Source: Thelocarpon superellum (taxonomy: Eukaryota). From it: a DNA stretch of 35,719 nt. This document shows, one piece after another, positions 1,113-24,585 of the stretch (the stretch's first letter is position 1; every line of letters starts with the position of its first letter). The stretch lies in the NCBI GenBank assembly GCA_026025795.1, contig JAPEUG010000154.1, positions 1 to 35,719 on the forward strand, given 5' to 3'. The notes under the pieces were generated by a model, which did not search any database, was not told where the DNA came from, and worked only from the letters and a program-made list of their open reading frames with translations. Made by a program: the position numbers and the translations under genes.

Positions 1113-4100
1113 TCAAACCACATTGCTCACGTCCATACTGGACGCCGTGATGCTCTGCATGGAGCGATTGTCAAGAGACATGGCGTCGCCCGAGAGGACG
1201 CGGACGACTTTGCGCGGGTTGGTGGGCTGCGCGACGAGCACCTGCGCGGGACAGACGACGATTTCGTCGTCGCCGACGCCGTCGTCGTCGCCTTTCTTGA
1301 CGACCAAGGGGAACAAGACCATGCGCACGATGGCGCCGGCGGCTTCCAGGTCCTCGTTGGACGTCGCGTCGCCGCTCCGTTCGTTCATCAGGGCGGCGTT
1401 GAAGGAGACTTGGCGTGCCAGCTGGCCGTCCGTGGTATATTCGGGCTGTAGCGGCGGCAGCATCATGAACTCGGCCCGTTGCGTGCGCATCTCGATCGAC
1501 AGGTCGATGGCGTTGCGCATCACCTTGCGCAGGGTCTCCTGGATCTGGGGAATGAGGTTGGCGGGCGGTGGGAGGAGGGCTGAGAGCGTGCGCAGGACCT
1601 CGCCCACGACCGCTTCCGTGTCTTGTTCGCGCTGGGTGGCGAAGGCTTGGCGGCGCGAGAGCAGCGTCAGGGTCGTGGCCCGCCACTGATGCACGGCCGT
1701 GGCCGGGCCGACCTCGGACAGCAGCTTCTCGAGCGACTTGAGCTTCTGTCGCTGCTCGCGGTCCATGCCGAAGAGATAGCGCGTGAAGACGAACTCCCAC
1801 ACCATGGTCATGACCACGGACATGAAGACGTCGCGTCGCTTGATCCGGTCGGCCAGATAGGTGTCCACGTCGGACCCGTCCAGGATGGCGTTGTCCAGCC
1901 GCTCGAAGATCTTGTCGTCGCGCACCTCGTCCGCCAGCCGGCAGCCGCGCATGTCGGAGAACTTGGAGAAGCGCAGGACCCACTGCTGTACCTGCTGGCA
2001 CAGCTGCTGGCAGGCATTCTCAAAGTAGTCCTCGTCGCGCACCAGCAGGAAATTCTCGCGCGGCTTGCTGGCGAGGATCTGTTGTTGCAGCGAGCGGACT
2101 TGCGCCCGCGTCGCGTCCAGCTCCTCCCGCAGCCGGCTCACCTCGGCCTTCTTGTCCGCGAGGGCCAGGTCCACTTCTTGCCGCACCACCTCCTCCATCT
2201 CGGCCGACATCGACCCTCGTTGTCGCAGGTCGACCAGCGCCCGCGTCGTTTCCTCCAAGGCCCGATGCTTGTGGTCATGCTCCGTCCGTAGCGAGGCCAC
2301 TTGATCCCCGTGGGCCGCCGCCGTCGCCGCCAGGCCCTCGTTCAGCTCCGTCAGGCGTGCGAGCTCGGCATGCAGCCGATCGAGCGTTTCGCGGAGCTGC
2401 ACGATCTCCGTGTCCTTGTCGCGTATGTGTTGGTCGCGGGCGGCGATGGCGTGGGACTCGGGCATCGCGCCACTGCGGCTCTGTGCATAGACGGCATCAT
2501 ACAGGCCCTTCTCCGCCTTGAGTTTCTCCTCTTGCAGTTGTCGATTGTCCGATGCGAGCTGTTCGAGTCGGGTCTCCATGTCCATGATCTGCATGCTCTG
2601 GCGCCGTCGCATGCTCGGTGGACGCGTCTGCGACCGGGGCGACCCAGGCACATCACCGACTCCCTCCTGTACACGGGTCAGCAACGCCATGTCATCGTGA
2701 GAAGGAGGGCGACGTACAAAGACCTCGCCCATGTCGCGCGGTCGGCCTTTGCCTTTGTCCGTGACAGGGTCGTAGGTGGAGGAGGAGGCGACGGAGGCGG
2801 CGTGGTGGAGGTCGGAGAGGCTGACGCCCGCTGAAGGATTGGCGAGGTCGGCGACGCTCGCCTTCGCTTGGCGCCGTTTACTCGCCGCCCTAAGGTCGCC
2901 ACTAAGGCTGCGGTTGACCCGGCGGAGCGAGGAGACGCTGCCACTGTCGCTGCCGCTGTGTTGGCCTGGTGCACCATTCGAGCGAGCACTGACGCCGCTG
3001 AGCGGACTTGGTTGGTCTCGTACGTCTCCAAGATCGCGTCGGTCACGTAGGTCTCGGTCGGGCGTGTGCAGTGAAAGCCGGGGCCCTCGACTCAACGAGC
3101 GACCGGTGCCGTCACGTGACTGACTCCGAGCGCTCATCCGGTCCATGTCCACGGTCTCCTCTCGGTCATTGACCGAGGGCCAGGGGAGCCGAGACATGAG
3201 CTCGTCACTGGAGACGACCTGGTCGTCATCGTACCTCGATCGGTCACTGTGACCACGACTGTGGTCCCGGGATGGTGTGTCGTCTGCCAGTTGCTCCGGA
3301 ATCGTCATGAGTCGCTGGCGCTCCGATCCGAGCGGCGACCGAGTGGATACAGGCACATCGCTGTTGATTCCGATCGGCCCACCGAACAACGACGGTCGAG
3401 TCTGGGAGTCATGGTCGCGTTCGCGGCTCTGAGGAACAATCGGTCTCTCGCCGTCACCATTTTCTACTGCCCGCGACGCCCCGTACGGGCTGCCTTGGCC
3501 GTCCCGGTGCGACGGCGATGAGTCAAACAGGTATGAGTTTCGGTCTTTCGACGTCGATGCGACCGGAGAGGGCGCGGGCTGGTCGTCTGATGACCGCCTC
3601 GAATCTGTCGCTCGGTCGGTGGAGGCACGGTGGGGCAGAACCTCCACTGGTCGGCCATCCGCCCCGTATCGGACATCGTCGTGGCTGCCGCGTGAGACGG
3701 ACAATTCGTAGGAAGGGTCCACCTCTACCGAGACGTTGAGGGGCCGATGGCCTGGTGAGCCGACCAACGACGGGCTGGGGGATGGACTGTCGGCCAATTT
3801 CGACGCCGTCTCGTGGTTGTCTGACAACGCGATCGGTCGGTCATCTTGGGGCCCGGACTCACGAGCCGCAACATGCTGAGAAACGTCTCCTCGGGCGTCG
3901 CTAGGAGACCTACACCGGTCAACCGGATCGTCATAGCCGCTATCGCGAACCGAGCGACGTAGAGAGCCCTGCTGCGAGAGCAGCGGAGAGTCGGCAACAA
4001 TCATGCCGCTGTCCCGAACGCCACCTTCACTCTCCACTTCCTGAGAGTCTTGAGATCGACGCTGGCGTCCCGAGTGGACTGCCTGGGCCAGGGCTTGACC

Positions 4101-4722
4101 AGCCACGGCGCCGACCACGATTTGGCCGAGGCCCTTCGGGCTAAGACCCATCACGTCCGTGACCGATGGGGATTGGTCCAGTCTTTCGGGCGTGCTCGAC
4201 CGTGCTCGTCGCTCGGCTTCCTCTGGTGCCTCTCGTGGTCGCTCGTGTCTGCGAGGCGCAAAGTCGAACTGCTCACCAAAGATGCTATGATCCGCCTCAA
4301 CGGTGTCCGGGACAGGCATCTCCTCCTCGACAAAGGAACCCGGGATGGGACGTGTGGGCGGTTCTTCGTCGACGAGTCGCGGGGCGTTTCCCCGTTTGTC
4401 AATCCGGGATGTATCTCGTGCATCGAGAGATTCCACCTTCATGTCGGTCTCCATCGCCTCCGGTGTTAAGGCACGAGACGTCTCTTTGCGACCATGCTTT
4501 CCCTTCTTGCCCTTTTTCTTTTTCGGAATCTCTTGGAATTCAGATGCTTCTTCCTGGGCTTCGGCGGCCGAGTCGTTGGTAGGGGATTTCTCGACGGGCG
4601 CGACGATCGTGAGGGAGGGCGCCCGATCAGCGGAATCATCATCGTCGATGAGATCGGCCGCATCGATGTCCTCTGCTTCTCGGGCTTTCGATATAGGATC
4701 CGGTACCTCCGACACATCGGGT

Positions 4723-4782
<60 letters not shown>

Positions 4783-7700
4783 ACCGGAACCAAGTCCTCG
4801 GTCTTTTGCGTCTTCTTCTTCTTGCCTTTACCCTTGGCCGGAGACATCCAGTCATTCTCGGGCTCTTGCATCTCGGCAGGCTCCTCCGTGATGTCGCGAC
4901 GATCGGTAATGTTGTCCGAGGGGAAGGCCTTCGCTGCGACGGCTTCTGCCGGCACGATCTCTTCGGTTTCGGGGTCCTCTTTGATGCTTGATCGATTCTT
5001 CTTGCCTTTCTTCTTCCTGTCCTTGGACCGCTTGAGAAGATACGCGTCCGATGCGACTGGCTCGGTGTCGTCCTTGGCCTCACCCACAGCCACGGCTTCC
5101 TTGTCATTCGTGACCTCTTCGCTGATAGCCCGCTCTGATAGCCGTTCATTGGCTGGATGGTCGGCAACGACTTGATCTTGATCGTTCTCTGTCGCGTAAA
5201 CCGAAGCTTCCCTGAAATGCGGCATCTCTTCTCGGCCCTCGAGGTGCTTGTGCTCTAGAGGCTGCTGGATGTCTTGGTCTTCCGCCTCCACGATTGAATC
5301 CTCCACGTGTTTGGGGCGCTCGAGCGGGTCAGGGTCAGCGAGGGTGGAAGACCCGTCGGCAAAGGGCACCTGTTTGTTCTTTTTGCCCTTCTTGCCTTTC
5401 TTCTTATTCCCGGATATCGCGTAGTCAGGCTCGTTATTTGCAGGCGGTTCGCTCAAGGCCGTCGCTTCGTCCTGCTTCGACGGAGGCACAGATGGTGTGT
5501 CGACGAGCGGCGTAGGGTTGGTGGATGGTACGTCGTCCGTGAGGTCGCGCATCTGGTCCCGAGTAACGTCCTGCTCTGCGGCCAGGGCATCGGCGACCTC
5601 GGGGTGCTCAGTTGCAGTCGGGCGAGGCCCATCTCGAAGCTCTTCTTTCGGCTGAAGCACGAAATGGCTGGGTTCGTCGTTGACAAGTCCATCGTCGACG
5701 ATAGCACGAGGAGAAACTGTAGCGGTCTCCTGTAGATCCGGAACATCTATTGTCTCGTCAGGAGTTGACGACGATGGCGTTTCGTTCCAATCCAGCAGCC
5801 GCTGGCCCTTCTTGCCCTTCTTCTTCTTGCCGGGAGATGGATCCACTTGCCGCTCGGCGCCGACGACGGCACCGACGCTGGCACCGAGTATCTCGTTCTT
5901 AGAGACTGGACCGGATCCCTCGCTGGAATCTGGGATGTCGCTGAGGGTCGTCTTCTTCCTGCTTTTCTTCTCCTTTTTGCGATCCTTCTTCGACTTGCCT
6001 ACCGAGGCCGTCCAATCGTCGTCGGGCGGAGCGTCGCCGTCGACGGCCGCATCCTGCTCGTCGGTTCCATCTTTCACCGGTGTCAGTTTCGCTTTGAAGT
6101 CGTTGCCGAGGTCTTTGCCGATGCTCCGTGATATGGAAAGGTCATCGCCCTCCTTAATGGGGCTTTGAATTTCTTCGGCCACAGGTTCGCTGGGTAGGTT
6201 TCGCTCGGGGGGTACATCGTCCTCTTGGATCATTCCCTTTTTCTTGTCTTTGTTCTTGCCTTTCTTGCCTTTCTTGCTGACGAAGGTCGGTTCCAAAGAC
6301 AGCTGAGCTTCCTCCGCGGCCTTGTTACTAGGTGGGGGTACGTTCTGACCAATGCTCAGGTCGGCCGACACCTCCAAAGCTTCTGGCGAGCCGATAGACG
6401 TAGGGCCAATATCATCCTGCTGTTTCGTTCGCCGGTTGGGAAAGAGATCGCTGACTGTATGCACTAGTCGCGAGGGAGGATGCGGTGGAGTGCTGGATGC
6501 CATGGTCTCCTTAGCTGCGTCTTCCTCGCGACGGGTATCCTTGACCTCCTTCGCGCGAGAATCGACGGGCAGAGGGAAGGATGCAGCGCGTGGGGTAGAC
6601 TGGGCTGAGTCGAGCAGGTCCAAGGATGGGCGGTCGATGTCACGAAGAGAAGAGGTGTCGACCGTAGGCCTGGTTTGTGGCGACACATCCGAGTCGGCGA
6701 AGACAGGACTGTGCACATCCACACCCTGCATTGGAGGACCATCTTCGGCCTCATCGTGCATCGATGGACTCCGCGAGGTTGAGTGGCTCGACGGCAGGGA
6801 CGGATATTCTTCTTCTGCCGGCACCGACTCTTGCTTCGACGCGTGGCGCTCAACCAGATACAGCGGTCGATACTCCTTCGTCGGCGCGAATTCGGTCGAG
6901 GCCGACTTGTTATGCCGCGTGCGTGAGATCACGGGAAGGATAGGAGAACTCAGGGATGGCGATCGCGCAGCTCCAGTTGTCAAGGGCGGTCGACGGAAAT
7001 GGAGCGGGATGGCCGTGGGCGAAGCGCCTTTGGGAGGGCTCATCATCGGATGAGCACCATCCGGGGACGCAATCATGGAGAGACTCCGAGCCTTGGGTGG
7101 CGTGTCCATCGTCGGCGCCAAGGTCGGCGAATCTGGAGGACTTATGGGCAGCAAAGGGAGGTCGTCCGCATTCACCATTGGAGAGAGCGAATGAGACGTG
7201 GCCGGCCACGGGGGCAGTGGCGCCGCTGCGGAGACGAGCGCGCTGTAATTCCAGAGCGGCTGATCGCGTCGAAAATCAGGAGTGCTATGGGGGCGGGAAG
7301 CAGCATTGGAGAGCGCCATAAACGCACGGCCGGCGCTGCGGTCTTGCGCCGTGCTCAGTGCCCACGATGGCGAGGACTGGGCCGGTTCACCAAGCTGCGG
7401 CCCAGGGTTAGGGTCGGTCAGACTCGGAGCCTGTCAGAGTGTCAGCCACGCGGCTCTGCAGGATGTCTCGAGTACCTGGAGAGGCTTGGTACCTTGATCT
7501 CGTGCTCGCGGGTGATCGTACCTGAATCTGGCTCCTCGTCTTCCCCGTCGCGGCGCCGTTCCTGTAAGTCTCGCGATGAGATGAGGTCTTCGGCAGGGAC
7601 ATCGTCGGCGTAGGTTGACCGCTTGCTCTTCTTGGATTTCTTCTTCTTCTTGGGCGTGTCAAAGTCCTCCACGATCGTTTCGGAGGTAGCATTTCCCTCG

Positions 7701-10700
7701 AGATCGCGAGGCAGCTCCACCGCGGCGTTGTCTTCGAGGTCCACTGCGGTACCACGCTTATTCTTAGACTTTTTCCCCCTCTTCTTGGGGCTCTCGTAGT
7801 CGTCCATCGGAGCCGTGGCCTCGTCCTGATCAATCTCATCGAGCGTGGAATTCCGCTTGCTCCGGCGAGACGCCTTGTCATCCATCGGCTCAAGATCCTC
7901 GTCCGCTGTGCCCTTGCGCGATAATCTCTTGGACTTCTTGCCCTTGGACTTCCGCGCACCGGCCCGATCATCGTCCTTGACCTGCGTTGCAGCCTCCGTT
8001 GCGCCCACGGGTACATCCGCGGGAGGATCGCTCGAAAGATCCTCAGTGGCGTCCACATAATCATCAGGGCTCTCGGACTTCTGCATCGAGTCGCGCTTGG
8101 ATGAGCCCGACCTTTTGCTCGAGACCCGGCTGATGTCGGTGAATCCATCGGTCTCCTCCCGGGCCGCGACAACTCGCGATTCGGTGGGGCCGGCGGGGGC
8201 GTCCTTCTCCGTCTCCTCCTTGGCGGATGGCATGTCTCGGGCGTCCTTGGGCTCGCTCGAACGTTTAGCTCCTTTCATCGCCGCGCTGACCAAGGCACCA
8301 AAGCCGAAGCCTGCCAATCCCGCCGCCGCCGACCGCGACTTCTTGGGAGAGCGCTTCTCTTCGTCCGCGGGCTCGTCGTTCTGGGAGCCATGGGTCGTAA
8401 CCTCTCTCAGGGAGGAAGATGCATCCGCACAGGACTCGGGCTCTGGCCCGGATGGGCCTGCGAGCTCTTGGACAGCGGAGTCTTCGGGCTGTGGATCGGT
8501 TGCTTTTCGCCGCTTTCTCCGCTCTTTCTTGGTGATGATGGTCCCCATGCCAGAGTCAGCCGGATCGCTGCCAGATCCGTCCCGGGAGTCGCCCTCAATG
8601 TCACCTGGACTGGCTAGAGACGGTTCGCCGTCTGATCCAGGCGGCGAGTCCCTACGCTGGTAGGACGGGTCATCGAGGACGATGGACGGGTCGAATCCGG
8701 TATCTTGGAGACCGGCGGCCAGAGTAGCGGCAAAATCCACGTCATTCCCTAAATCCTTTGCTGAGTCTGGGTCGCGCGGCTGGGGGTCGGTGGCCGTCTC
8801 AGCTGATCGTGCGGTCGGCGCCGAAGTATGTACCTCGTCGACTGGGTCTCGCACTTGGTCCTCAGGTTCTGCCGTGGTCTGCTCGGAGGCCTCGGGAGTT
8901 CTTTGCGACTCGGTAGGCGCTTTGGTCGGCAGGAGAGCGGGGGAAGCGGGCACCGGCGTCGGGGAGATTAGATTGAGTCGGGGAACGGTCCACGGCAACG
9001 ACATGAGGCCGGGACGCGATCCGCCAGGGCCATAAGTAGAGCCATAGCTCGATGGATATGGCGCGTCGCGAGACGAACCGGGAGGGGCGACCTCGATGAT
9101 CTGAGGGACTTCATCGGTGAAGAGATCGTCATCGAAGACGGCAGTCGTGGGCTGGCTCGGCTTGGACGATCTGTTGCGCAGCTCGGCAGGCGTGAAGAAA
9201 TCAGCCATTGACTGCTGCTCTTCCGAATATTTGTCCAGCACCGATGGGACACCAGCGGCGTCTCGGGCCGCGATCTTGGAGGCCGCCTGACGCGCGATCT
9301 CCTGTTGCCGTTGGATGTCGCCTCGCAGTCCGGTGACGTGGTCTCGCTCGTCCTGCTGGACGTCGTACAGCGCTTGATATTGTGGTTCCGCTGGCTCTGT
9401 CTCTCGCCGCTTGGGTCGGTTGCGGTCCGGCGCGTGGTTCGCAGCCGCAACAACACCCGTCGCCATGGCCGCACCGGCCACCCCGGCCACCGCCGGACCG
9501 AACCATGACGATTCAGTCTTGTCGTCTCTGGCAGTTGCAGGACCATCGGACTGTCGACGCTGGGCGCGTGAGCGTTCGCGTACTTTCTCTCGCGCAGCCT
9601 TCTCCTCGGCCTCTCGTCGTTTGAGTCGGTCTCGTCGGCTTTCATTGTCTGGCACGGCACGGCGCTCCGCCTCGTCCTTTTCTCGCTGTTCCTTGGTGAG
9701 GTTGAAGCGCACTCCTGTGGATTGTTCCAGCGTGGCGGACCTCCGTCGCGTCTCCTTAACGGGTCTACCGTCGCCGTTGTCGTGTGAGATCGAAGACTTC
9801 CGCGGACGACCTCCTTCACGGATCTCGGCGGAAACATTTCCAGTCGCCTCTAGCGGATAGCCGGGGGGTCCCGACGTAGCGACGTATGAGAGATCAACTG
9901 GCACCTGGGTGGTGTAGACGGAGGAGTATACCGGGGCGTAGGGCTGGGGGTGTTGCAGGGGAAGCGGAGTCGGACGAGCGGAAACGTAGGGCGGCGGCGG
10001 GCCGGACTCTATTGTCTCATGGCGGGCGACATCGAATCGATTCGGGTCGGCGGTGGGTGCGGGATAGACCTCCTGTAGGGATGGCAAGCTGCCAGTACTG
10101 CCTTGGGCCGTCTGACTAGGACGCCCATAACGATCAGCCACGACGGCGCTTATTGCCGCCCCCGCCGCACCTGCCACGGCGGGTCCAACGTGCGACTCAG
10201 CATGGGCTGGTCGTGGGATTGTGGGCGTGGGCGGCGCAGGAGCGGTGTCCGTCCTCTTGGACCGGCTGCTTCCCCAGCGCCAGCCCCACTTGTCGGTACC
10301 AGACGAAGCATCCGAGGCCAGCGACTCCTGGCTGGCTAGTTTGACCGCACTTTCATTGGCGTAAAAGGACCCAAAGGCTAGATCTGAGTGTGCAACGGAG
10401 GACCCATCATCGTCCGTGGCCGACTCCCATGCCTCCTCCTCCACGACGGATGCGGCGGACGCGGGGCCGCCACTCCGCCGTGGGCTCGATCGCTCAGCGT
10501 GAGAATGCGACGGTCTAGTCTCTCTGACGGCCATCAGCTCGGGTCGTCGTTTCTCGCGCGAGCCCTTGGAGGACTGGCTAGCAGCCAAGGCGAGGGCGGC
10601 TGCGCCCAAGCCAAGCATGGCCGCTTCCTCTTTCCGCCGGCCGCTATCTTTGGTCGTACTGGCGCGCTTCTTGCCTTTGGCCGATCGGCGGTCAATGTCC

Positions 10701-12961
10701 GAAGAGGAAGAGTCGTTGCCCCAATTGAACAGGCCTCCCTTGCTCTCCTTGGTGCGAGATTTGCGGTGCGTCTTCTTTGGTGGCGTCCCGAACAAGCCGC
10801 CCATGACCCCCGTGTCGGACTCTCGCCGTGAGGTGGACGAGCGGTGGCCTGGGCTACGTTCTCGGCTGTCACGGTGTTTCTTTCGGACAACCTCGCCCGT
10901 GGGCGATCGGGACTTGGTTCGATGGCGCTCGCGAGAGGCCATGATGGCCGCGCCGCTGACGGTGCCTGCTGCCGCCGCCATGACTCCGTGAGATCGTTCT
11001 TGGGAGCTCGAACGACGACGTTGATGCTGCTGGCGATGATCACGATGGTGATGCCTCTCATCATGGTATGTCGCCGACGTAGTGGCGTGACGATGCTTGC
11101 CCGACGTACCGTCGTAATGCTTCAAGCTGACATCAGAGCTTTTCCGCGTGACCCCATGCGACGTGTAGCTCTTCTCGTCGAGAGAACCGTGCAAGGAGGT
11201 GGTGGAAGTCCGGCCCAAGCGAGCGGTGTACTTGTCGTCGGCATCGCGATTGTGCCACAAAGACTGGCCGACTTTCGCGATGCCATAGCCCGTGAGCCCA
11301 CCCGCCATCCACGATGTCGCGTTGCGGCGCTTGCCGGTACTACCATCCGAACCATATCGGGTGTCCTTATCGACGCGCTGGGAGCTTCGGTAGTGATGCA
11401 CGCGTGGGGCATCGCGCGGAGTCGTGCCGGGGGCGAAGCAGTGCCGGCAGACGCCAATGGCTTCCGTGTACTCCTCAAACTTTGCGACGCCCTCGCGGTC
11501 CCGGAAGTAGTCAACAAGCTTGTCGAGCGGGCCTTGATTACGATGCTGATGTTGTTGCTGGTGAGATGATGTCTCGTGATTCACATAGGCAACCGCCGCG
11601 CCCGTGCCCAACGCGCCGGCCAAATAGAGCCCTGCATTCGCTGGCAGGCCGTGACCACCGATGGGTGCCTGCGCGGGGCCGGTAGCATTCGGCGTCACGG
11701 CGGGCGTCACGTACGGTGGCCCGTCGGCTGGCACCATGGGTTGTGGGGGTGCGGCAGTAGACCCGACCGAATAGTATGCGGAGCCCTGATCGGAGTCGGG
11801 ACGGGGTTGGCCGTGGCCTTGGCCTTGGCCTTGGCCTTGGCCTTGGCCTTGGCCTTGGCCTTGGCCTTGGCCTTGACCTTGGCCATGATGTCCCGCCATG
11901 TACCCGGCCGCGCCTGCGAGCGCAGCAGCACCAGCCGCGGCACCCAAGGTCGATACGATGGGAGCTGAGGCGGAATGGTATGAGGCGGTTGATGCCGTTG
12001 CGGTTGCCATGGACGATGCAGCTCCGGAGACTTTGCCCGGCTTGCTCGGTTTGGATGTCTTGGATGGTTTTGAAGGCTTCGACGGTTTGGGGGGTCTGCC
12101 AGTTACAATGGGTGCGTCAGGATTAGGGTCATTGAAGAAACTGGCGGCCGCACCGACGGCGCCGACGGCGGATGGTTCGACCGGGGGATTGGGTTCGGCG
12201 GAGGCCGGTTGCAGGTGAGGTTCGGCGCCCACGATGAGCGTAGGATCATCCGTCCGCACGCCGGGTTGATTAAGGACCGACTCGCCCTGGTCTCCGTAAT
12301 AATCCGCGGCCAAGCCAGGGCCTCCTTCGTTGACGCTCAACGGAGGCCTGTAGGGCTCGGCGGACTCGGTGGGGAACTGGCCGGGGAACTGGTCGGGCAC
12401 GTGCGACGACGGCTGGCCGGGTGCTGGCGGGGGCGGGACAGCACCGGGAATGGTGGCATCGTACTGCCCGGGGAATTGGGTGAAGCCTTGGGCGCCGACT
12501 TGGTTTTCATATTCCTCCGCGCGAGGTGTATCGGCCGTAGCGGATCGTCTCTTCTTTTCATGGGTAGAGCGGCGACGCTTGAAGTCATCGGCGGCGCCCC
12601 TTACATCCTCGTCGGCGCCGTCTCGGCTGGCGATGGGGGGATCGGTGGCGGATCGATGCGGGCGAGGCCTGTCGTCGTTGTCGTGCTTGGAGCGCCGGTC
12701 CCCGCTTCGGGAGCGGTGTCGGTCGCGACTCCGTGAGCGATCTCGGTCTCGATCTCGATCACGTCGATCTTTCTTGTCCTTATCCTTGTCCTTCTCCTTC
12801 TCCTTCTCGCGCTTCCGACCGTCGCTGGTGCGCGAACGGGACTCGATCGTCTCGGAGGCATCGGGGGAGATGGCCCTGCGCGACGAGCTCGACGCGTGCG
12901 CCTTGCGAGACGAGGCCGCGGTGGACGGCGGCTCCGACGACTTGGTGATCTTGGACCACAT
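1113..12961 (-). CDS. lah: Leashin-like Woronin body tether ('involucrin repeat protein'), ~3911 aa, 3 exons (12961-7493, 7430-2718, 2666-1113)
   Basis: N-terminal conserved blocks GLAADYYGD, GPLDKLVDYFRDREGVAKFEEYTEAIGVCRHCF and WGWRWG. Long acidic, disordered middle with repeated poly-Lys motifs and EYRPLYLVERH. C-terminal coiled coil plus the conserved domain DEDYFENACQQLCQQVQQWVLRFSKFSD...EYTTDGQLARQVSFNAALMNERSG...LFPLVVKKGDDDGVGDDEIVVCPAQVLV. The phase-0 intron 7431-7492 joins ORF 7442..12961 in frame to ORF 1113..7319. Intron 2667-2717 (GTACGT...CTGAC...TACAG) is in frame. Exon lengths sum to 11736 nt. Confidence 0.8.
4723..4782. repeat. (TCAGGC)10 coding repeat, encodes a (Pro-Glu)n tract in leashin
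   Basis: Ten perfect units; minus-strand translation PEPEPEPE... Confidence 0.95.
7431..7492 (-). other. 62-nt intron joining the two leashin ORFs; contains the in-frame TGA at 7442-7444
   Basis: Minus strand reads AAG|GTACCA...GGCTGAC ACTCTGACAG|GCT. Upstream exon is 5469 nt (1823 codons). The downstream 111 nt are open and in frame with ATG 7319. Confidence 0.8.
11815..11880. repeat. (GGCCTT)10 plus one variant unit, encodes a (Gly-Gln)n tract in leashin
   Basis: Ten perfect units then GACCTT; minus-strand translation GQGQGQ... Confidence 0.95.
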
Positions 12962-13983
12962 GGCCGCGGGTGCCCGTGCGTGTCGCCGTGGGTGAAGTCA
13001 CCGGTGAGCCACAGGTGTCTGGATGATGTCGATCATGGGTGCTGATCGCCAATGGTGGTGGGGGGGACATGAGGTGACATGTTCTCGAACAACACGGCGA
13101 TGGCGACGATGCGAGCGGAGGCGCCCGTGATGAATTGTTTTCCGGTGGCTGGTCGACTAGGGTCTTCTGCGTTGTCGACTCGGTGTCTGGCTCGGGACTG
13201 GGGTGGTGCGGCCGGCTTCAGCTTGACAGGGATCGTCTCGCCTGGGCCCGAGCTCGCCGGGGCGCCCGACCCACGGGCGACCGTTGCCGACGGGGCTCAT
13301 GGTTGCTGGTACTTGTGACATCTGATAATGGGGTACGTTCCAAGGCTCGACCACCAACAGTCGGCACCGGGACATCCTTAGAGACGATGATGGAGCTGTG
13401 TAGTTGATCATCTATCAATCCGTCACCCCTCCTTAGGGGCGGCCTGGTCTCTCGAGACGTCTGCCCTGGCGTACCGCGCTGGCCAACATCGGGTTGGGCT
13501 CCATTCCTTAGGCTATCTGGTCTACCTCGCGACCGGCCATGCGCGTACCATGGCTCGGGGCCGCACACGCGGGTCAAACACCGAGGCAAGGGGACATGGG
13601 AGAATGAAAGACGTGATGCCCACACGTCATTCGCGTTCTCAGCCCGGTCCTTGCAGATCCTCGTGGGAGTGCAGGTCCTATTTATAGTATGTACGGAGTA
13701 CTCCAGACCAACTACCTACTGTACGTGTCACGCACGAAGGCGATGCGGGCAGTGAGGTAGAGTTCAACCAAATGACATTACAGGTGTAAGGTACGTGCGG
13801 GTAATGTGCGCTCAAGAGACGAATGCTAGAATGGTCGGTTACCTCAGCGTGGCCAACCCAGCCGGGAGCCCGGCGACCGATGCCGCGCAGGGTCGCGACG
13901 TCGTCCACACCCCAAGACAGAGGGGAGCCGTAGCTTGTCCACGATCACGGATCATGACCATAAGCAGTCGTCCCATCGCCCGA

Positions 13984-15832
13984 CTATTTCCTGAAACGCT
14001 CCGACAATTTTCGGAAGAAGCCGGACTTCCGCTTGTCGTCCTTGCTAGTCTCCCCGGTCGAAGAGCCGCCAAAGAATCCGCTGCGCCGCTTCTCCTTCTT
14101 CGTCGTGCTGCTCTCGCTGGGCGCGTCCGTTGCGGGGGCCGGGGTGGACGCCGTCTCCGTCGTGCTCTCCGCCACGCCGGTTGTGACCGGTGAAGTCTCC
14201 GTCGCGGCCGTAGCGGCGGGGTCCGACGCCGTCGGCGCGGACTCGCCCGTGCTCTCGTCAACCTTCACCTCTTTCAAGAGCTCGCCCTCAACCTGCTGCT
14301 TCTCTGCTACCGCTTCGGCGTTCGCGGCCGCTTCGGGCGCGCGATGGGCTTCTCCCAGCGATTCTTGCACGACCTCGGGCACGCCGGGCATCGCCGATTC
14401 GCCATTGGTCGCAGCGGCCGGGGCGGGTGTCACCTCGCCCAGCAGCTCTTGTTCCATCGCGCCTTTCTCCTTCAGCATCTCAACCGATGAGCCTGCTTCG
14501 GGCCCGACGTGAGCCTTGGCCTGGCTACGCTTAACAACGTCGGGGAGGCCAGAGGCCGTGCTGGGCTCTTCGAGAGGCACCTGGTTGGCCAGCCCCGCTG
14601 TAGTCGACGACGGCCCGATCGACGAAATGGTGGGGTCAACGCCGTCGGCTCCGGTGATGGGCAGGCTCGACTCTGGAATCAAGTTCTTGCTCACGGGCGG
14701 GAGCTCCATCGCGTCGGCGGCAGCGCCGGCTTTCCCCGGCACTGGAGCCACGGGGCCGGGCGTCACCAAGGGCGCCCCGGTCAGGGCGGAGCTACCCTTC
14801 TCGTACGACTCTTGATCCGTCGTGGCGGTCGACGCGACCGTGTTGGTCGTCAATTCGCTCGAGTCCGGCACGGGTTCGCCGGGCTTCAGATGGATCGGAT
14901 TGCCAGCACCCGCCGTGGCAGGGATGGGTGCGACCCCAAACGTCTGTGGTTCTCCGTTGGCCTCTCTGGGTAGCGAGCCATCTTCGGCGACGGTCGAGGT
15001 CGTGGTATTGCTGGTCAAGGTGCTTGGATTTGGGACCGCGGCGCCGGGCGGCAGGTGGACGGGGTTCCCAGGTCCATCGGTGGCGGGAATAGGTGCGACG
15101 GATAGCTCGGATGGCTCTTGCTGCGGAGTCACGGGGAAGTTCCCGGGCATATCCGTCGCCCCGCTGGCTTCCTTACTGCCTTCGAGCGGCACTTTGCTGG
15201 CCAGTTGCGCCGTTGTCGACTCGGGCGTGACGTTGGACATGATGGCGGCCGCGGGTGTGGTGGCGTGGCCGTGCGGTTTGACGATGTTTTCGGGTTTCAG
15301 CACGTTGTTGACGTTATTCTCGCTATCCGTCTCTTGCGGAGCCGTGTGGTCCGTCGTCCAGGTGCCGTCCACAACAAACTAGAGCGCGCGAGGCATCAGC
15401 ACGCTGTGGAACCAAGACACCCAGCATCACGCCCGGAGCGGGGTAGAGGGGCCATAGACGTGAGACCGCCACGCCACTTTCCAGCAGGATCTGCACGGAC
15501 CTTGTAGTAGATGGAATGATCGACCTTGGTTAAGTGTACGACCTTCTCGAAACCGTCGCCGACCTTCTCCAGCTGGACTGTCTTGCCCCAGTCGTCAAAG
15601 GTGCCAGTGACAAAGACCTCGCTGGCAGGGTGTTGCCTACGTCACACGTCCACCAGTCAGCAGTGTGTCCCGATTTGTCACAAGTGCTGGCTGCGTGAGC
15701 CCGGCGGTGAGAGTGGCGCATGCCGCTTCTACCGAGCAGGGCCGCGACACGCGCTGTCGGCCATCGCCCATGGCCCATCAGAGCAGATCAAGAGGGAGCA
15801 GCGGCTTACCATTTGAACAGAAAGGTACCCAT
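13984..15832 (-). CDS. Crp1/Mdg1-like protein with N-terminal AMPK-beta glycogen-binding (CBM48-like) domain, ~517 aa, 3 exons (15832-15810, 15636-15501, 15378-13984)
   Basis: Spliced N-terminus MGTFLFKWQHPASEVFVTGTFDDWGKTVQLEKVGDGFEKVVHLTKVDHSIYYKFVVDGTWTTDHTAPQETDSENNVNNVL is a typical E-set/AMPK-beta CBM. Introns GTAAGC..TAG (15637-15809) and GTCCGT..TAG (15379-15500) keep frame. Basic C-terminal tail KKEKRRSGFF...KRKSGFFRKLSERFRK. A second ATG lies one codon upstream at 15835. Confidence 0.88.
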
Positions 15833-20811: not shown

Positions 20812-21495
20812 TCAGTCTCTCGCCGCCTGTTCCCGTCTCCGGTCCAAGATCTCCTGTCTCACGGCCTCCGCGGCCAACTCGGCTTCAATCACTTTGCCCA
20901 CACCCTCGCGCCACGACTGGTTCAAAGCCTCCAGCTCGCCCCGCACACTCTCCTGGCCCGCCTTGCGCGCCTTATTCACCTGCTCCGTCTGCTCGCGGCG
21001 CGCCACCAGCTCACTTTCCAATGCCCGCAGGACGTCTTCGAGCTGGGCGTTTGCAATCAGCCAGGCGTTCTTGCCGAATTCTTCCAACAGGGCGAGGTTG
21101 GTGAGGCGGATCGAGAGATGTGTTGACGATGCGTAGCTCTTCTGGAGTACCTCGCGCCACCGCTGGGCCTCGTCGCCAGCGGACGTTTCCGTGGGGGCGT
21201 CCAGCGCTTCGTACCGCGACAGGTCGACACCCCCTTCCCGCGGCCGATTCTCCGCTTGCCGGGAGATTTCTTGCTGGATCAGATCGGAGAACTGGATCGC
21301 GGGCGCTTCGGGGATGGAAGGGTGGAGGGTAGTCGCGTGGGTCAGTTCGGCATTGATGGCTTGATTCGCGCCCTCACGTGCTGCTGGGCTCAGGTCGGGG
21401 TCGATGTCTGGAAGCTGGGGTCAGTCGATACGTCGACGGGACGGTTAGTGGATCTTACATGGTAATGAGTCGTGAGACTCTTGTATCAGCGGCAT
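20812..21495 (-). CDS. spf27: Pre-mRNA splicing factor SPF27/BCAS2/Cwf7 (Prp19 complex), 210 aa, 2 exons (21495-21459, 21407-20812)
   Basis: Spliced MPLIQESHDSLPYID...GGVDLSRYEA...RLTNLALLEEFGKNAWLIANAQLEDVLRALESEL...VNKARK...W...V has the BCAS2 family motifs. The 51-nt intron GTAAGA..CAG (21408-21458) keeps frame. Confidence 0.92.
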
Positions 21496-21775
21496 GATGT
21501 AAGGGTTTGTGATGAGCGAGCATGAGGTGGAGGACTCCAGACGTCGACGTTATCCTTCGCATCGAAAGATCCTCTGGCGTGGTTCCTTGCGGCTTCGTCT
21601 CGGAAGATGCCGATGTCGGCTGCCGTAGGAATCACAACCAAATTGTAGAATGTACGCATAGCTGCTACTACTAGTTACTAACATAATTAACTACTTACCA
21701 GTTATGTTATTAGTAGTGTAGAAATCAGAGCTGAATGTCTAATCTACACATAGTCAGGATAGTGATAGGAGTGTG

Positions 21776-21847
21776 CACGTGACCAGATCACGTGCGCGCT
21801 CCTACAGTAGTAGCTATTAGCGAGGGGTCCCCAGCAGCGCACGTGAC
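21776..21847. promoter_or_regulatory. Cluster of three RTCACGTG E-box (bHLH, Cbf1-type) motifs in the divergent promoter
   Basis: CACGTGAC 21776-21783, ATCACGTG 21787-21794 and CACGTGAC 21840-21847, between spf27 (ATG 21495, minus) and the microprotein (ATG 22105, plus). Confidence 0.5.
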
Positions 21848-22104
21848 ACAGTCAAATTTGTGCCCGTACAATAATCGTATTGTTTCACGCACCTGCGTCA
21901 TCGGTGACGCCAGGACCTGCCCGAGACCCGCCGGCTTGCATTCCAGGGAAAAGAGTACCAGTACGAAAGAGTACTGACATGAGGTCTCATATCCGATGCA
22001 CTCCGGAGAATATAGATGGTCATCTCCAACCATCACTACAAACCTATTAGTACATACCCTGGTACAGCCGTTCGCTTCTAACCTCCTATCTCGTGTCTCG
22101 CACC

Positions 22105-22514
22105 ATGGACTGCCTCCCCATCCCCTTCATCTGCTTCCAGTGCGGCACAGACCAGAACCCATGCCACTGTAAGGTCGTCGGCCCGACTGTGGGGTTTGCC
22201 GTGGCGATCGTGAGCGCCGTATGCTCCCCTTCCGCATGAGTCCCTTCTTTACGCGACGAATCCCGCAGCTGCTGCACTCGCTGGATACTAAGGTGCCACG
22301 AACAGATCATCTGCTGGCCAGGCTCATTACTGTGCGGTTGTTGCTTGAAGCAACCAGGAAAAGAGTGAGTTGGTTGTCACAGATAACTCTCGCCTCGGTC
22401 TCCCAGAGGACATCCTCGACTAGGGAAGGGCTGGGCTAACCATGAAGCGCCAATAGTGCACTTGGATACCCGGCACAGTGTAGTGGGCAAGTGTCAGACG
22501 CGATACCATTTTGA
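22105..22514 (+). CDS. Cys-rich single-pass membrane microprotein, 76 aa, 3 exons (22105-22218, 22306-22364, 22457-22514); not in the ORF track
   Basis: Strong start context CACCATGG. Introns GTATGC...TACTAAG...AACAG and GTGAGT...GCTAAC...AATAG are canonical and frame-consistent (231 nt total). Product MDCLPIPFICFQCGTDQNPCHCKVVGPTVGFAVAIVSAIICWPGSLLCGCCLKQPGKDALGYPAQCSGQVSDAIPF has 10 Cys and a central hydrophobic segment. Confidence 0.85.
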
Positions 22515-23039
22515 TGGATGAAGCGCGTGTACCGCGAGCAGTGACATGACCTTTGGTAATGTGCTCTTGTGAAAATTCGTGTTAGGTTTGACATTGGACA
22601 CCTTCTCTGCCTCTCCTTGGGCATTTGAAAATACTGCATGAATGAAAAAGTATGACCACATCGTCATAACAATGAGTCCGGTTGAGTGATTGCGTGGTGC
22701 CAAGGTGTGTCCCTGTGAAATGTTGCAGTGAAAGTGACCCTGTGACGATGTGCCATGAACGCGAGGATCGCATGCGACGTGCCCTTGTGTGCCCTCGTGT
22801 GCCCTTGTATAACGCTCTGAAGGGGGCTTCCAATTCAATCCTGCATCAGTGGTCATGATAACAGGCGGGATGATGCTCGGTGCAGGATCATTTGTCGTCA
22901 AATGAGGGTATCAGGATCTCGTGGGATGTCTGGTTGGTCGACTCCAATCGTTCCCTTTTCGGACCCAACCCCCCTTCATCATATCGACATTCACCACGTT
23001 CATTGTGTTCCAAGGTCGACGCCCACCACAATTGACCCA

Positions 23040-24585
23040 ATGGCTCGTCCAAATTCCTCTGTCTGCTCTTTTCTCTACACATTCAGCCCTCCACCAGTGC
23101 GTATGCCTTTACGCTCGCCGCCACAATCAACCCTCTTCGGACGCGTGCCGTTCTCTTCAAAGCATAGCAAAGTCCATTCTTCGAGCATCAGACGACACCC
23201 CCGTCCTTATTCAAGCCAGATCTCTTCCTTCAGACGAGAGCGGTCACCCCAACGAGGGACTTCGGACGAAAGATGCGGCCTCCACCCAAACCCAAGTCCC
23301 CCATCGCCACGCGTCAACAACGACGCCCCTTCCCGCCGTTGAAATACGACAAACGCCTCTTGCTTCAGGTCGACGAACTCCTGAAGGAGGCGTCCTTTGT
23401 CGACACCAGCCGCAGCCTCACACAGGAAGATGTGAGCCGCTCGCAGCTGGGCATGTCCAAGGAGCAGCAGGACTGGGTGTACGCACATCTGCAGCTCTGC
23501 CGAGCGCCCCAGATCCAGACCCAGCGCCGTGTCGATGGCTACATTAAGCATCTCGAGTACATGTGTGTTGATCCGGCTGCCTTGTGGAAAGACACGGACG
23601 GCCAAGACACGCTCATGTCTGATGGAGAGCTCGGACATCTCCTCGATGACTTTTATGATCCGCCAAAGTCAACGGAGCAAGCACAGGGCGTGGTGAGTGG
23701 GGAGCAGACCACGCCATCTCCGCCATGCACCCCACCATCTCGGACATTCTCCGCGTCCCCGCAACACACGGTACCTCAGCCGCCCACATCATCTCCACGC
23801 CTTTCATCCTCCTCTCGGCGTCCGGCGTCGCAGCAGCACCCAGTCCCTCAGCAGAGCCCGCAACCTCGATCAGCCCAACCTCGTCCTCCTCCGCGGGCGT
23901 TGGCCCCAAAGCACACCCATGCGCAGATTACGCCTCGGTCTCTCTCCTCGTCCGCTACGTCAAAGCGGTCTCCGACGGGCCCCACGATCACCGGCGTTGA
24001 CCCAAACAACGGCCACAGCCCAGAAGAGGAGCGATATGCCCTGCTATCTCTGAGTCGTAGCGAGGAGCCCCTCAATCAGCGACGGTCGAACCGAGAAGTG
24101 ATTCCCAACACCATCAACGTGTTCATGGTACCTCGGACGCCGCCCCAGGCAAGCCTGACGCCCCCGACCCCACACGCGGCCCACCCATCCGTAGTGATCG
24201 AAGAGCTACTAGTGGGCGAGCAGGTCTTCAGCGCGGCCGACATGACGGTCGGGAGGCCCCTTTGAGCACTCACACATTCCTCCCCGCTCTTCGTCCCATC
24301 AGACCCCAGTCACCCCGCATCTCATCCCATCTCAAAAGGCCGCCAGGCTAATCGCTCGTTACACGTACGCAGGAGATCCCGGTCCTATCACGGAGCCGCA
24401 CCCCGTCGCCGAAGAAGTACGCTCGCGTGCTCTCCGCCGCCCCTGCCCCCGCCGCCCAATCCCCGCGCTTCGACTACACGCGGCACTCCTTCGATCCTGT
24501 GTCGCCTTCGCCCGCGCCGGGCCCCCTTCTTCCCCGTCCTGCTCGCTCTTTGCCCCCTGCCGCTGCTCCCCGCCGGCGTCGGTGA
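23040..24585 (+). CDS. Hypothetical Pro/Ser-rich protein, ~449 aa, proposed exons 23040-23096, 23168-24247, 24373-24585
   Basis: The core ORF 23273..24265 has a globular-looking segment (LKYDKRLLLQVDELL...LGHLLDDFYD) followed by a low-complexity tail. Phase-0 introns GTGCGT..TAG (23097-23167, weak branch point) and GTCGGG..GCTAAT..CAG (24248-24372) extend it in frame. No family recognised. Confidence 0.5.

What the first reader, a model, noticed from the sequence alone, without database searches (positions are those of the whole stretch)
22105..22514. Hidden three-exon, 76-aa cysteine-rich membrane microprotein resembling a small land-plant protein family
Seen: no exon is long enough for the ORF track, but a strong start context, two canonical introns and exact frame closure give MDCLPIPFICFQCGTDQNPCHCKVVGPTVGFAVAIVSAIICWPGSLLCGCCLKQPGKDALGYPAQCSGQVSDAIPF. 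It has an N-terminal CxxC-x6-CxC cluster (possible metal site), one hydrophobic helix, a juxtamembrane CGCC (possible palmitoylation) and a C-terminal AIPF. An alternative acceptor (AAG, 22447) would add 3 aa in frame. From memory and unverified: poorly characterised ~70-aa plant proteins share CxxCGT..NPCRCKVVGPTLGF...WP and end in AIP(I/F). Inference: an under-annotated plant-fungal microprotein family, either ancient or horizontally transferred, possibly acting in metal or stress handling like CYSTM-type peptides.
Basis: partly seen in the sequence, partly recalled or inferred. Interest (0 to 1): 0.78.

Follow-up and report, generated by a model that had tools for sequence, protein, structure and literature searches.

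The report
Fungal relative of plant salt-stress microprotein
This is a real 76-amino-acid membrane protein gene of a filamentous fungus whose relatives in plants carry the name 'little protein 1' (linked to salt and drought stress in rice and mosses), so a protein studied only in plants appears to be an old, unnamed family shared with fungi and green algae.

Summary
The three-exon gene is real. It ranks first of 4,829 splice models against homologues, aligns without gaps at 57/76 identity to an Aureobasidium protein, shares its two intron positions with 51 and 49 of 52 related loci and shows purifying selection in every exon. Relatives occur across Pezizomycotina, in Saitoella, three chytrids, green algae and land plants; there is no Pfam family and no fold match. 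Plant members are labelled 'Little protein 1' or 'Cold-regulated protein'; papers equate little protein 1 with rice SALP1, a membrane protein that raises salt tolerance. That link is by name only: I saw no OsSALP1 sequence. A four-cysteine metal site is doubtful: two of the cysteines become bulky hydrophobic residues in 14 and 21 of 155 homologues. Recent plant-to-fungus transfer is disfavoured; an ancient one is unresolved. Most likely it is a lipid-anchored membrane microprotein acting in osmotic or drying stress. It is a new member of a thinly studied family. I found no fungal or algal member in print, but the gene is already annotated as hypothetical in many fungi.

The parts
22105..22218 (+). 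Exon 1, codons 1-38: cysteine hairpin region, invariant GPT motif and first half of the hydrophobic helix
   Evidence: pN 0.12 vs pS 0.83 against 49 loci
22219..22305 (+). Intron 1, 87 nt, phase 0, GTATGC..CAG
   Evidence: same position in 51 of 52 modelled loci
22306..22364 (+). Exon 2, codons 39-58 (part): end of the hydrophobic helix with WP kink, juxtamembrane CGCC
   Evidence: pN 0.23 vs pS 0.85
22365..22456 (+). Intron 2, 92 nt, phase 2, GTGAGT..CTAAC(22436)..TAG; minor in-frame AAG acceptor at 22447
   Evidence: same position in 49 of 52 modelled loci
22457..22514 (+). Exon 3, codons 58-76 and TGA: amphipathic helix and free C-terminal hydrophobic-Pro-hydrophobic end
   Evidence: pN 0.43 vs pS 0.77
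21497..22104 (.). Intergenic stretch shared head-to-head with the SPF27/BCAS2 gene; three CACGTG sites at 21776, 21789, 21840 (not conserved)
20812..21496 (-). Neighbour: SPF27/BCAS2 gene (context; start codon read by eye)
   Evidence: Pfam BCAS2 E 2.8e-55; same arrangement in L041, L042
19098..20345 (+). Neighbour: protein with cyclic-nucleotide-binding domains, PKA regulatory subunit-like (context)
   Evidence: Pfam cNMP_binding E 8.3e-37; near the orthologue in 10 of 80 loci

Best explanation
The gene is the single-copy fungal member of the 'little protein 1' / SALP1 family: a membrane microprotein with a cysteine-bearing beta-hairpin (9-25), one kinked hydrophobic helix (about 26-47), a membrane-interface anchor (CGCC in fungi, aromatic plus basic residues in land plants), an amphipathic helix (54-73) and a free hydrophobic-Pro-hydrophobic C-terminus. 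Shown here: gene structure, selection, family membership by sequence, hydrophobic and amphipathic pattern. Inferred: the CGCC is S-acylated and faces the cytosol; the C-terminal helix lies on the bilayer; the protein has no catalytic role and works as a small accessory or stabilising subunit in the plasma or secretory membrane that helps the cell through osmotic, salt or drying stress, in the manner of (but unrelated to) Pmp3/RCI2 proteolipids. The family is old and was inherited vertically within Ascomycota, with losses elsewhere.
For: Hydrophobic 19-residue window of KD 2.1 in the window protein and a mean of 1.95-2.5 in every group. Amphipathic moment of residues 56-73 above shuffles in Pezizomycotina (0.33 vs 0.19) and land plants (0.34 vs 0.24). 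At least two Cys at 48-51 in 61 of 61 Pezizomycotina and 0 of 63 land plants, which have 2.0 aromatic and 5.0 basic residues there instead: an exchange of one membrane anchor for another. Invariant columns are G26, P27, P43, P63, P75, i.e. structural. Penultimate Pro flanked by hydrophobic residues in 154 of 154 ends (one ends in Cys). AlphaFold model, pLDDT 71: hairpin plus two helices. UniRef names 'Little protein 1' on five plant members, including a 74-aa Oryza meyeriana protein. PMC8558194 (passage): little protein 1 (SALP1) is at the plasma membrane, possibly osmoregulatory, triplicated and up-regulated in a drying moss. PMC12819948 (passage): OsSALP1 improves salt tolerance through OsP5CS and proline. 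PMC5054160 (table): Physcomitrella little protein 1 up in drought. Tree: window protein within Pezizomycotina (95/87), then Saitoella (98/87), then the chytrid Caulochytrium (96/84).
Against: No expression, localisation, acylation or phenotype was observed for any fungal member. The tie to OsSALP1 is by name: neither the Os01g0644200 sequence nor the primary paper could be seen. Plant stress induction need not carry over to fungi; the fungal gene is single-copy and strongly conserved, as a housekeeping subunit would be. Both flanks of the helix are basic, so topology is not fixed. The model is only moderately confident (pTM 0.48). Land plants differ at telling places (Glu41 inside the helix, no CGCC). 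Two of three chytrid proteins fall outside the fungal group in the best trees.
Confidence: 0.5

Rival explanations
1. Constitutive small subunit or trafficking adaptor of a conserved membrane complex; plant stress induction is a later use.
For: Single copy in this genome; C10-G30 nearly invariant in Pezizomycotina; strictly placed hydrophobic C-terminus, which resembles carboxy-terminal export or PDZ-type signals (own knowledge); a two-stranded hairpin is unlikely to be stable alone (inference).
Against: No named hit from budding yeasts, Basidiomycota, Mucoromycota or animals among the rows listed, which is hard to square with a core complex; tandem copies and stress names in plants.
Confidence: 0.25
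2. Metal-binding or metal-sensing peptide using CxxC-x6-CxC as a four-cysteine site.
For: All four Cys are kept in 124 of 155 homologues, including 62 of 63 land plants; C10 and C20 are lost in only 3 and 1. Ten Cys in the window protein. A faint BRI3 match for two Saitoella proteins (E 0.011).
Against: C13 is replaced in 14 and C22 in 21 of 155, almost always by V, I, L, F or M and never by His, Asp or Ser; they are lost separately and in several lineages, and Saitoella lacks both. No CYSTM, LITAF or zinc-finger family among 144 members at E <= 1.
Confidence: 0.15
3. The plant-fungus distribution comes from an ancient horizontal transfer between early green algae and early fungi rather than from descent with many losses.
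For: Named hits are confined to Viridiplantae and fungi. Ascomycota plus Streptophyta (p-AU 0.43) and Ascomycota plus two trebouxiophytes (0.39) are not rejected. Chytrids do not form one group with Ascomycota in the best trees.
Against: All fungi as one clade is not rejected either (p-AU 0.14; 0.43). Recent transfer is disfavoured: window with streptophytes p 0.023, Pezizomycotina with seed plants p 0.025, though a similar test on the quick tree gave 0.14 and none is corrected for several tests. 76 columns have little power, and 70-aa multi-exon genes are often missed in annotation, so gaps in range may be false. This rival concerns origin and is compatible with any of the functions above.
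Confidence: 0.3
4. Not a gene: chance splice sites in intergenic DNA.
For: Many splice combinations give an open frame.
Against: Ungapped 75% identity to a 76-aa protein, shared intron positions, pN below pS in 49 of 49 comparisons per exon, shared neighbours.
Confidence: 0.01

Closest known systems
Plant 'Little protein 1' / OsSALP1 (Os01g0644200) / 'Cold-regulated protein' family
   Same: Length 70-77 aa, CxxCGT..NPCxCKVVGPTxGF, hydrophobic helix with WP, G56, P63 and IP[IF] end; 27/73 identity to the Oryza meyeriana protein so named, 33/75 to Carpinus and Vitis.
   Different: Fungal form has Cys41 and CGCC where land plants have Glu41 and aromatic/basic residues; single copy against tandem copies in plants; no fungal function known. 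The tie of the UniRef name to OsSALP1 rests on names in papers, not on a sequence.
Unnamed 76-79 aa hypothetical proteins of Pezizomycotina (e.g. Aureobasidium pullulans D6D13_04510, Aspergillus niger ANI_1_520144)
   Same: Orthologues: up to 57/76 identity, same introns, shared neighbours.
   Different: Nothing of substance; many database models are mis-spliced or carry unrelated names.
Pmp3/RCI2 plasma-membrane proteolipids (PF01679)
   Same: Small hydrophobic proteins of plants and fungi tied to salt and cold stress (own knowledge); a functional analogy only.
   Different: No Pfam match; Pmp3 has two hydrophobic helices and no cysteine hairpin (own knowledge).
CYSTM (PF12734) and LITAF/BRI3-type cysteine-rich membrane modules
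   Same: Cysteine-rich segment beside one hydrophobic helix, likely acylated (own knowledge).
   Different: No CYSTM or LITAF match; the cysteine module is not terminal; there is no second HxCxxC knuckle.

Membership tests
Little protein 1 / SALP1 family | Full-length similarity to proteins that UniRef names 'Little protein 1' | tested here: met
   Scores 134-156 vs shuffled maxima 20-32 for three named proteins; profile E 3e-16 to 6e-16 for angiosperm members
Little protein 1 / SALP1 family | Shared signature C10, G14, N18, P19, C20, K23, G26-P27-T28, G30, A38, P43, P63, P75 | tested here: met
   All present in the window protein; weighted conservation 0.91-1.0 over 155 sequences
Little protein 1 / SALP1 family | One hydrophobic membrane segment in a ~75-aa chain | tested here: met
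   29 uncharged residues from position 24, KD 2.1; helix 29-47 in the model of the closest homologue
Little protein 1 / SALP1 family | Alignment to the OsSALP1 (Os01g0644200) sequence itself | not testable with these tools
   No O. sativa record with that id appeared; primary paper not held; link by names
Little protein 1 / SALP1 family | Plasma-membrane location and induction by salt or drying | not testable with these tools
   Reported for plants in passages of PMC8558194, PMC5054160, PMC12819948; needs experiments for the fungal gene
Land-plant subfamily of little protein 1 | Glu41 in the helix and aromatic/polybasic juxtamembrane segment | tested here: not met
   Glu41 in 62 of 63 land plants, Cys41 in 60 of 61 Pezizomycotina and the window protein
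CYSTM (PF12734) | Pfam match; C-terminal cysteine-rich transmembrane module after a Pro/Gln/Tyr-rich N-terminus (definition recalled) | tested here: not met
   0 of 144 members match at E <= 1; 25 further residues follow the CGCC
LITAF zinc module (PF10601) | Two CxxC knuckles flanking the hydrophobic helix (definition recalled) | tested here: not met
   No second knuckle in the alignment; 0 of 144 match; one automatic UniRef label on a mis-started Baudoinia model
Pmp3/RCI2 (PF01679) | Pfam match; two hydrophobic helices (definition recalled) | tested here: not met
   0 of 144 match; second helix is amphipathic
Four-cysteine zinc site | Four ligands kept, or replaced by His/Asp | tested here: not met
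   31 of 155 lack at least one; replacements are hydrophobic. Metal binding itself was not measured.
Any solved fold | Structural match to a PDB chain | tested here: inconclusive
   Foldseek best E 6.5; VIA-align best Z 4.2 at rmsd 5.4 over 54 residues; model pLDDT 71

The most novel reading that the evidence does not exclude
The SALP1 microprotein is not a plant invention but an unrecognised membrane regulator shared only by green plants and fungi, passed between early algae and early fungi, with a fold not yet solved; the fungal gene performs the same osmotic-stress job and can replace the plant one.
Probability: 0.2. Interest if true: 0.7.

Novelty: new member of a known kind. Interest (0 to 1): 0.42.

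Why it matters
Rice SALP1 is cited as a salt-tolerance gene, yet the passages I read give no molecular mechanism. A single-copy orthologue in laboratory moulds and two copies in Chlamydomonas make the mechanism testable by clean deletion, tagging and cross-kingdom complementation, which tandem copies in plants make harder. The family has no Pfam entry and is often mis-spliced in fungal annotations, so defining it would also repair many gene models. The gene itself is ordinary among filamentous ascomycetes.

Tried and rejected
No RNA holder listed for window 21900-22800, so no junction reads were examined. Pfam: nothing above cut-off for exons, 7 fungal homologues or 144 members. PDB by sequence: 0 matches at E <= 10. 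Fold searches gave no clear match. Atlas: exon 1 alone gave no usable hit; a full-length homologue gave Ascomycota and Streptophyta clusters without a family. Viral contigs: 0 of 16 pattern matches confirmed; prokaryote genomes: 0 of 8; both searches find only relatives holding the short patterns. CACGTG cluster as a conserved stress element: three sites within 65 nt (chance about 0.001, tested after seeing it), but 5 sites in 29 kb upstream of related loci against 40 in 210 kb elsewhere, so rejected. MFS neighbour as synteny: hits at 32-39% identity lie on the other side, not counted. Database names such as 'polyol transporter 2', 'COP9 subunit 1', 'LITAF domain' on 76-123 aa homologues were judged mislabels. 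Trees could not decide deep origin. A prediction of self-association was not available, so oligomer state is open. Earlier scan findings were not available. Literature: 0 papers for the conserved motif, 0 for six locus ids, four from calls and two derived or recalled; 'little protein 1' 2 listed of 3; SALP1/OsSALP1 as whole words 15 listed of 16, none on a fungal or algal member by title and abstract start. The one supplement asked for (PMC12451249) could not be read; it might tie AT3G03341 to Os01g0644200.

Full report
1. Observation. The window is from a filamentous ascomycete: neighbours are a cyclic-nucleotide-binding protein and SPF27/BCAS2, and the closest homologues are Dothideomycete proteins. 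Frame closure proved little, since 2,506 splice combinations are open and 34 look canonical. Homology is decisive. A search with exon 1 returned 60 of 60 candidates at E <= 1, every named one from Pezizomycotina. There is one copy in the genome.

2. Gene structure and selection. A metagenome scan gave 80 loci. I modelled 56 of them (59 distinct, minus four truncated or near-duplicate, plus L042) with a profile that holds no window sequence; 52 gave a complete model. Of these, 51 have the phase-0 intron after codon 38 and 49 the phase-2 intron in codon 58, as the window does. The four failures were one intronless plant-type gene, two incomplete models and one with an internal stop. The loci are not all independent species. 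Against 49 gap-free models, pN is below pS in 49 of 49 for each exon (0.12/0.83, 0.23/0.85, 0.43/0.77). The order PKA-R-like gene, SPF27, this gene recurs in L041 and L042, and the PKA-R-like gene lies nearby in 10 of 80 loci. The AAG acceptor is probably minor.

3. Range. Profile searches listed 120 of 294, 120 of 228 and 150 of 179 unnamed representatives, of which I looked up 19 more by cluster. Named members come from Dothideo-, Eurotio-, Leotio-, Lecanoro- and some Sordariomycetes, Saitoella (Taphrinomycotina), three chytrid-grade fungi (Caulochytrium, Geranomyces, Gonapodya), chlorophytes (Chlamydomonas, Raphidocelis, Botryococcus, Coccomyxa), Zygnematophyceae, lycophytes, a fern, a conifer and many angiosperms. 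No listed row names a basidiomycete, budding yeast, mucoromycete, animal or other protist. That is a blank among listed rows, many unnamed, for a gene that annotation easily misses; it is not shown absence.

4. Origin. With 69 rows, Pezizomycotina (99/95) and Ascomycota (96/84) are supported groups, and chytrids and chlorophytes are unresolved. With the window protein added it falls inside Pezizomycotina, then Saitoella, then Caulochytrium, in species order. Placing it with streptophytes (p 0.023) or Pezizomycotina with seed plants (p 0.025) is disfavoured, although a similar test on a quick tree gave 0.14. All fungi together (0.14; 0.43), Ascomycota with streptophytes (0.43; 0.51) and Ascomycota with trebouxiophytes (0.39) are all unrejected. 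So inheritance within Ascomycota looks vertical and the deep origin is open. Rows were subsampled by hand from 155.

5. Anatomy. Over 144 sequences the invariant columns are G26, P27, P43, P63 and P75. AlphaFold on that alignment, for the closest homologue, gives a hairpin (9-13, 22-25) and helices 29-47 and 54-73 at pLDDT 71, pTM 0.48; a shallow alignment gave 61. The first helix is hydrophobic in all groups and the second amphipathic. Of the four N-terminal cysteines, C10 and C20 are nearly fixed, while C13 and C22 are replaced in 14 and 21 of 155 sequences, nearly always by bulky hydrophobic residues and never by His, Asp or Ser; 124 of 155 keep all four. This argues against an obligatory four-cysteine metal site, without excluding metal or disulfide use in most members. 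After the helix, all 61 Pezizomycotina proteins have two or more cysteines and none of 63 land-plant proteins does; plants have aromatic and basic residues there. I read this as two ways to grip the cytosolic face of the membrane, which supports S-acylation of CGCC (inference). The chain ends two residues after a hydrophobic position, with Pro next to last, in 154 of 154, suggesting that the free C-terminus is recognised (inference).

6. Comparison with what is known. No Pfam family, PDB sequence or fold matches. UniRef calls plant members 'Little protein 1' (Carpinus, Vitis, Manihot, Turnera, Oryza meyeriana) or 'Cold-regulated protein'. I read passages only, no whole paper. PMC8558194 describes little protein 1 (SALP1) as a plasma-membrane protein possibly acting in osmoregulation, triplicated and up-regulated in a drying moss. 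PMC5054160 lists Physcomitrella little protein 1 as up under drought. PMC12819948 and PMC11122936 say OsSALP1 raises OsP5CS and proline under salt, the former citing Yuan et al. 2016, doi 10.1007/s11105-015-0944-0, which is not held. PMC12757826 gives SALP1 as Os01g0644200; PMC4526543 lists a wheat probe matching it in a salt-stress table. AT3G03341, an id I recalled, is listed as 'Cold-regulated protein' among 11 genes up under ABA, drought and salt in both Arabidopsis and rice (PMC12451249; also PMC5220070); its membership is untested. That Yuan et al. call the protein plant-specific is my recollection, not something I saw. PMC9904508, PMC10669554, PMC11978549, PMC9569586, PMC12205894, PMC10484672 and PMC10179023 added only citations or unrelated uses. 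Searches found no fungal or algal member in print; the library lacks most subscription papers.

7. Mechanism. Most likely (0.5) a lipid-anchored, non-catalytic membrane microprotein that steadies the membrane or tunes a transporter during osmotic or drying stress. Rivals are a constitutive subunit or trafficking adaptor (0.25) and a metal-binding peptide (0.15). It works like a Pmp3/RCI2-type stress proteolipid by analogy only; it is not a member of that family, of CYSTM or of LITAF.

8. Verdict. Observation confirmed; interpretation partly supported. It is a new member of a named but barely studied plant family, common and already annotated as hypothetical in filamentous ascomycetes. What seems new is the family's reach into fungi and green algae and the case against a conserved metal site. 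Interest 0.42.

Noticed in passing
window 1113-12997, - strand: Two very long frames (2,106 and 1,851 aa) separated by a short intron-like gap, probably one ~3,900-aa low-complexity protein with no Pfam match and no internal repeats by BLAST. It recalls Woronin-body tether (leashin/Lah) or 'involucrin repeat' proteins; that name is recalled and untested.
   Followed up: partly
window 21776-21845: Three CACGTG sites within 65 nt between SPF27 and the gene (9 in the whole window; chance about 0.001); absent from the same interval in L041 and L042 and not enriched upstream of other loci.
   Followed up: yes
window 23273-24265, + strand: 330-aa Pro/Ser/Gln-rich frame downstream of the gene with no Pfam match and no hit in the related loci.
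   Followed up: partly
window 13984-15378, - strand: Low-complexity protein with a partial AMPK glycogen-binding module (E 1.6e-4, below cut-off) and a near-exact internal repeat visible in the translation.
   Followed up: no
proteins P0136 and P0236: A divergent branch (Pseudogymnoascus and an unnamed record) lacks C10, C13 and C22 yet keeps the rest of the signature and groups inside Pezizomycotina.
   Followed up: partly
loci L074, L076, L079: These three loci have an intron after codon 49 in place of the usual one in codon 58.
   Followed up: no
proteins P0269, P0287, P0303: Mis-called green-lineage-like models read into an intron just after the CxCK motif, a position not seen among the modelled fungal loci; no intron position shared between plants and fungi was found.
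   Followed up: partly
protein P0308 (Gonapodya): The family sequence is fused in the database model to a 500-residue downstream protein, probably a gene-model merger.
   Followed up: no
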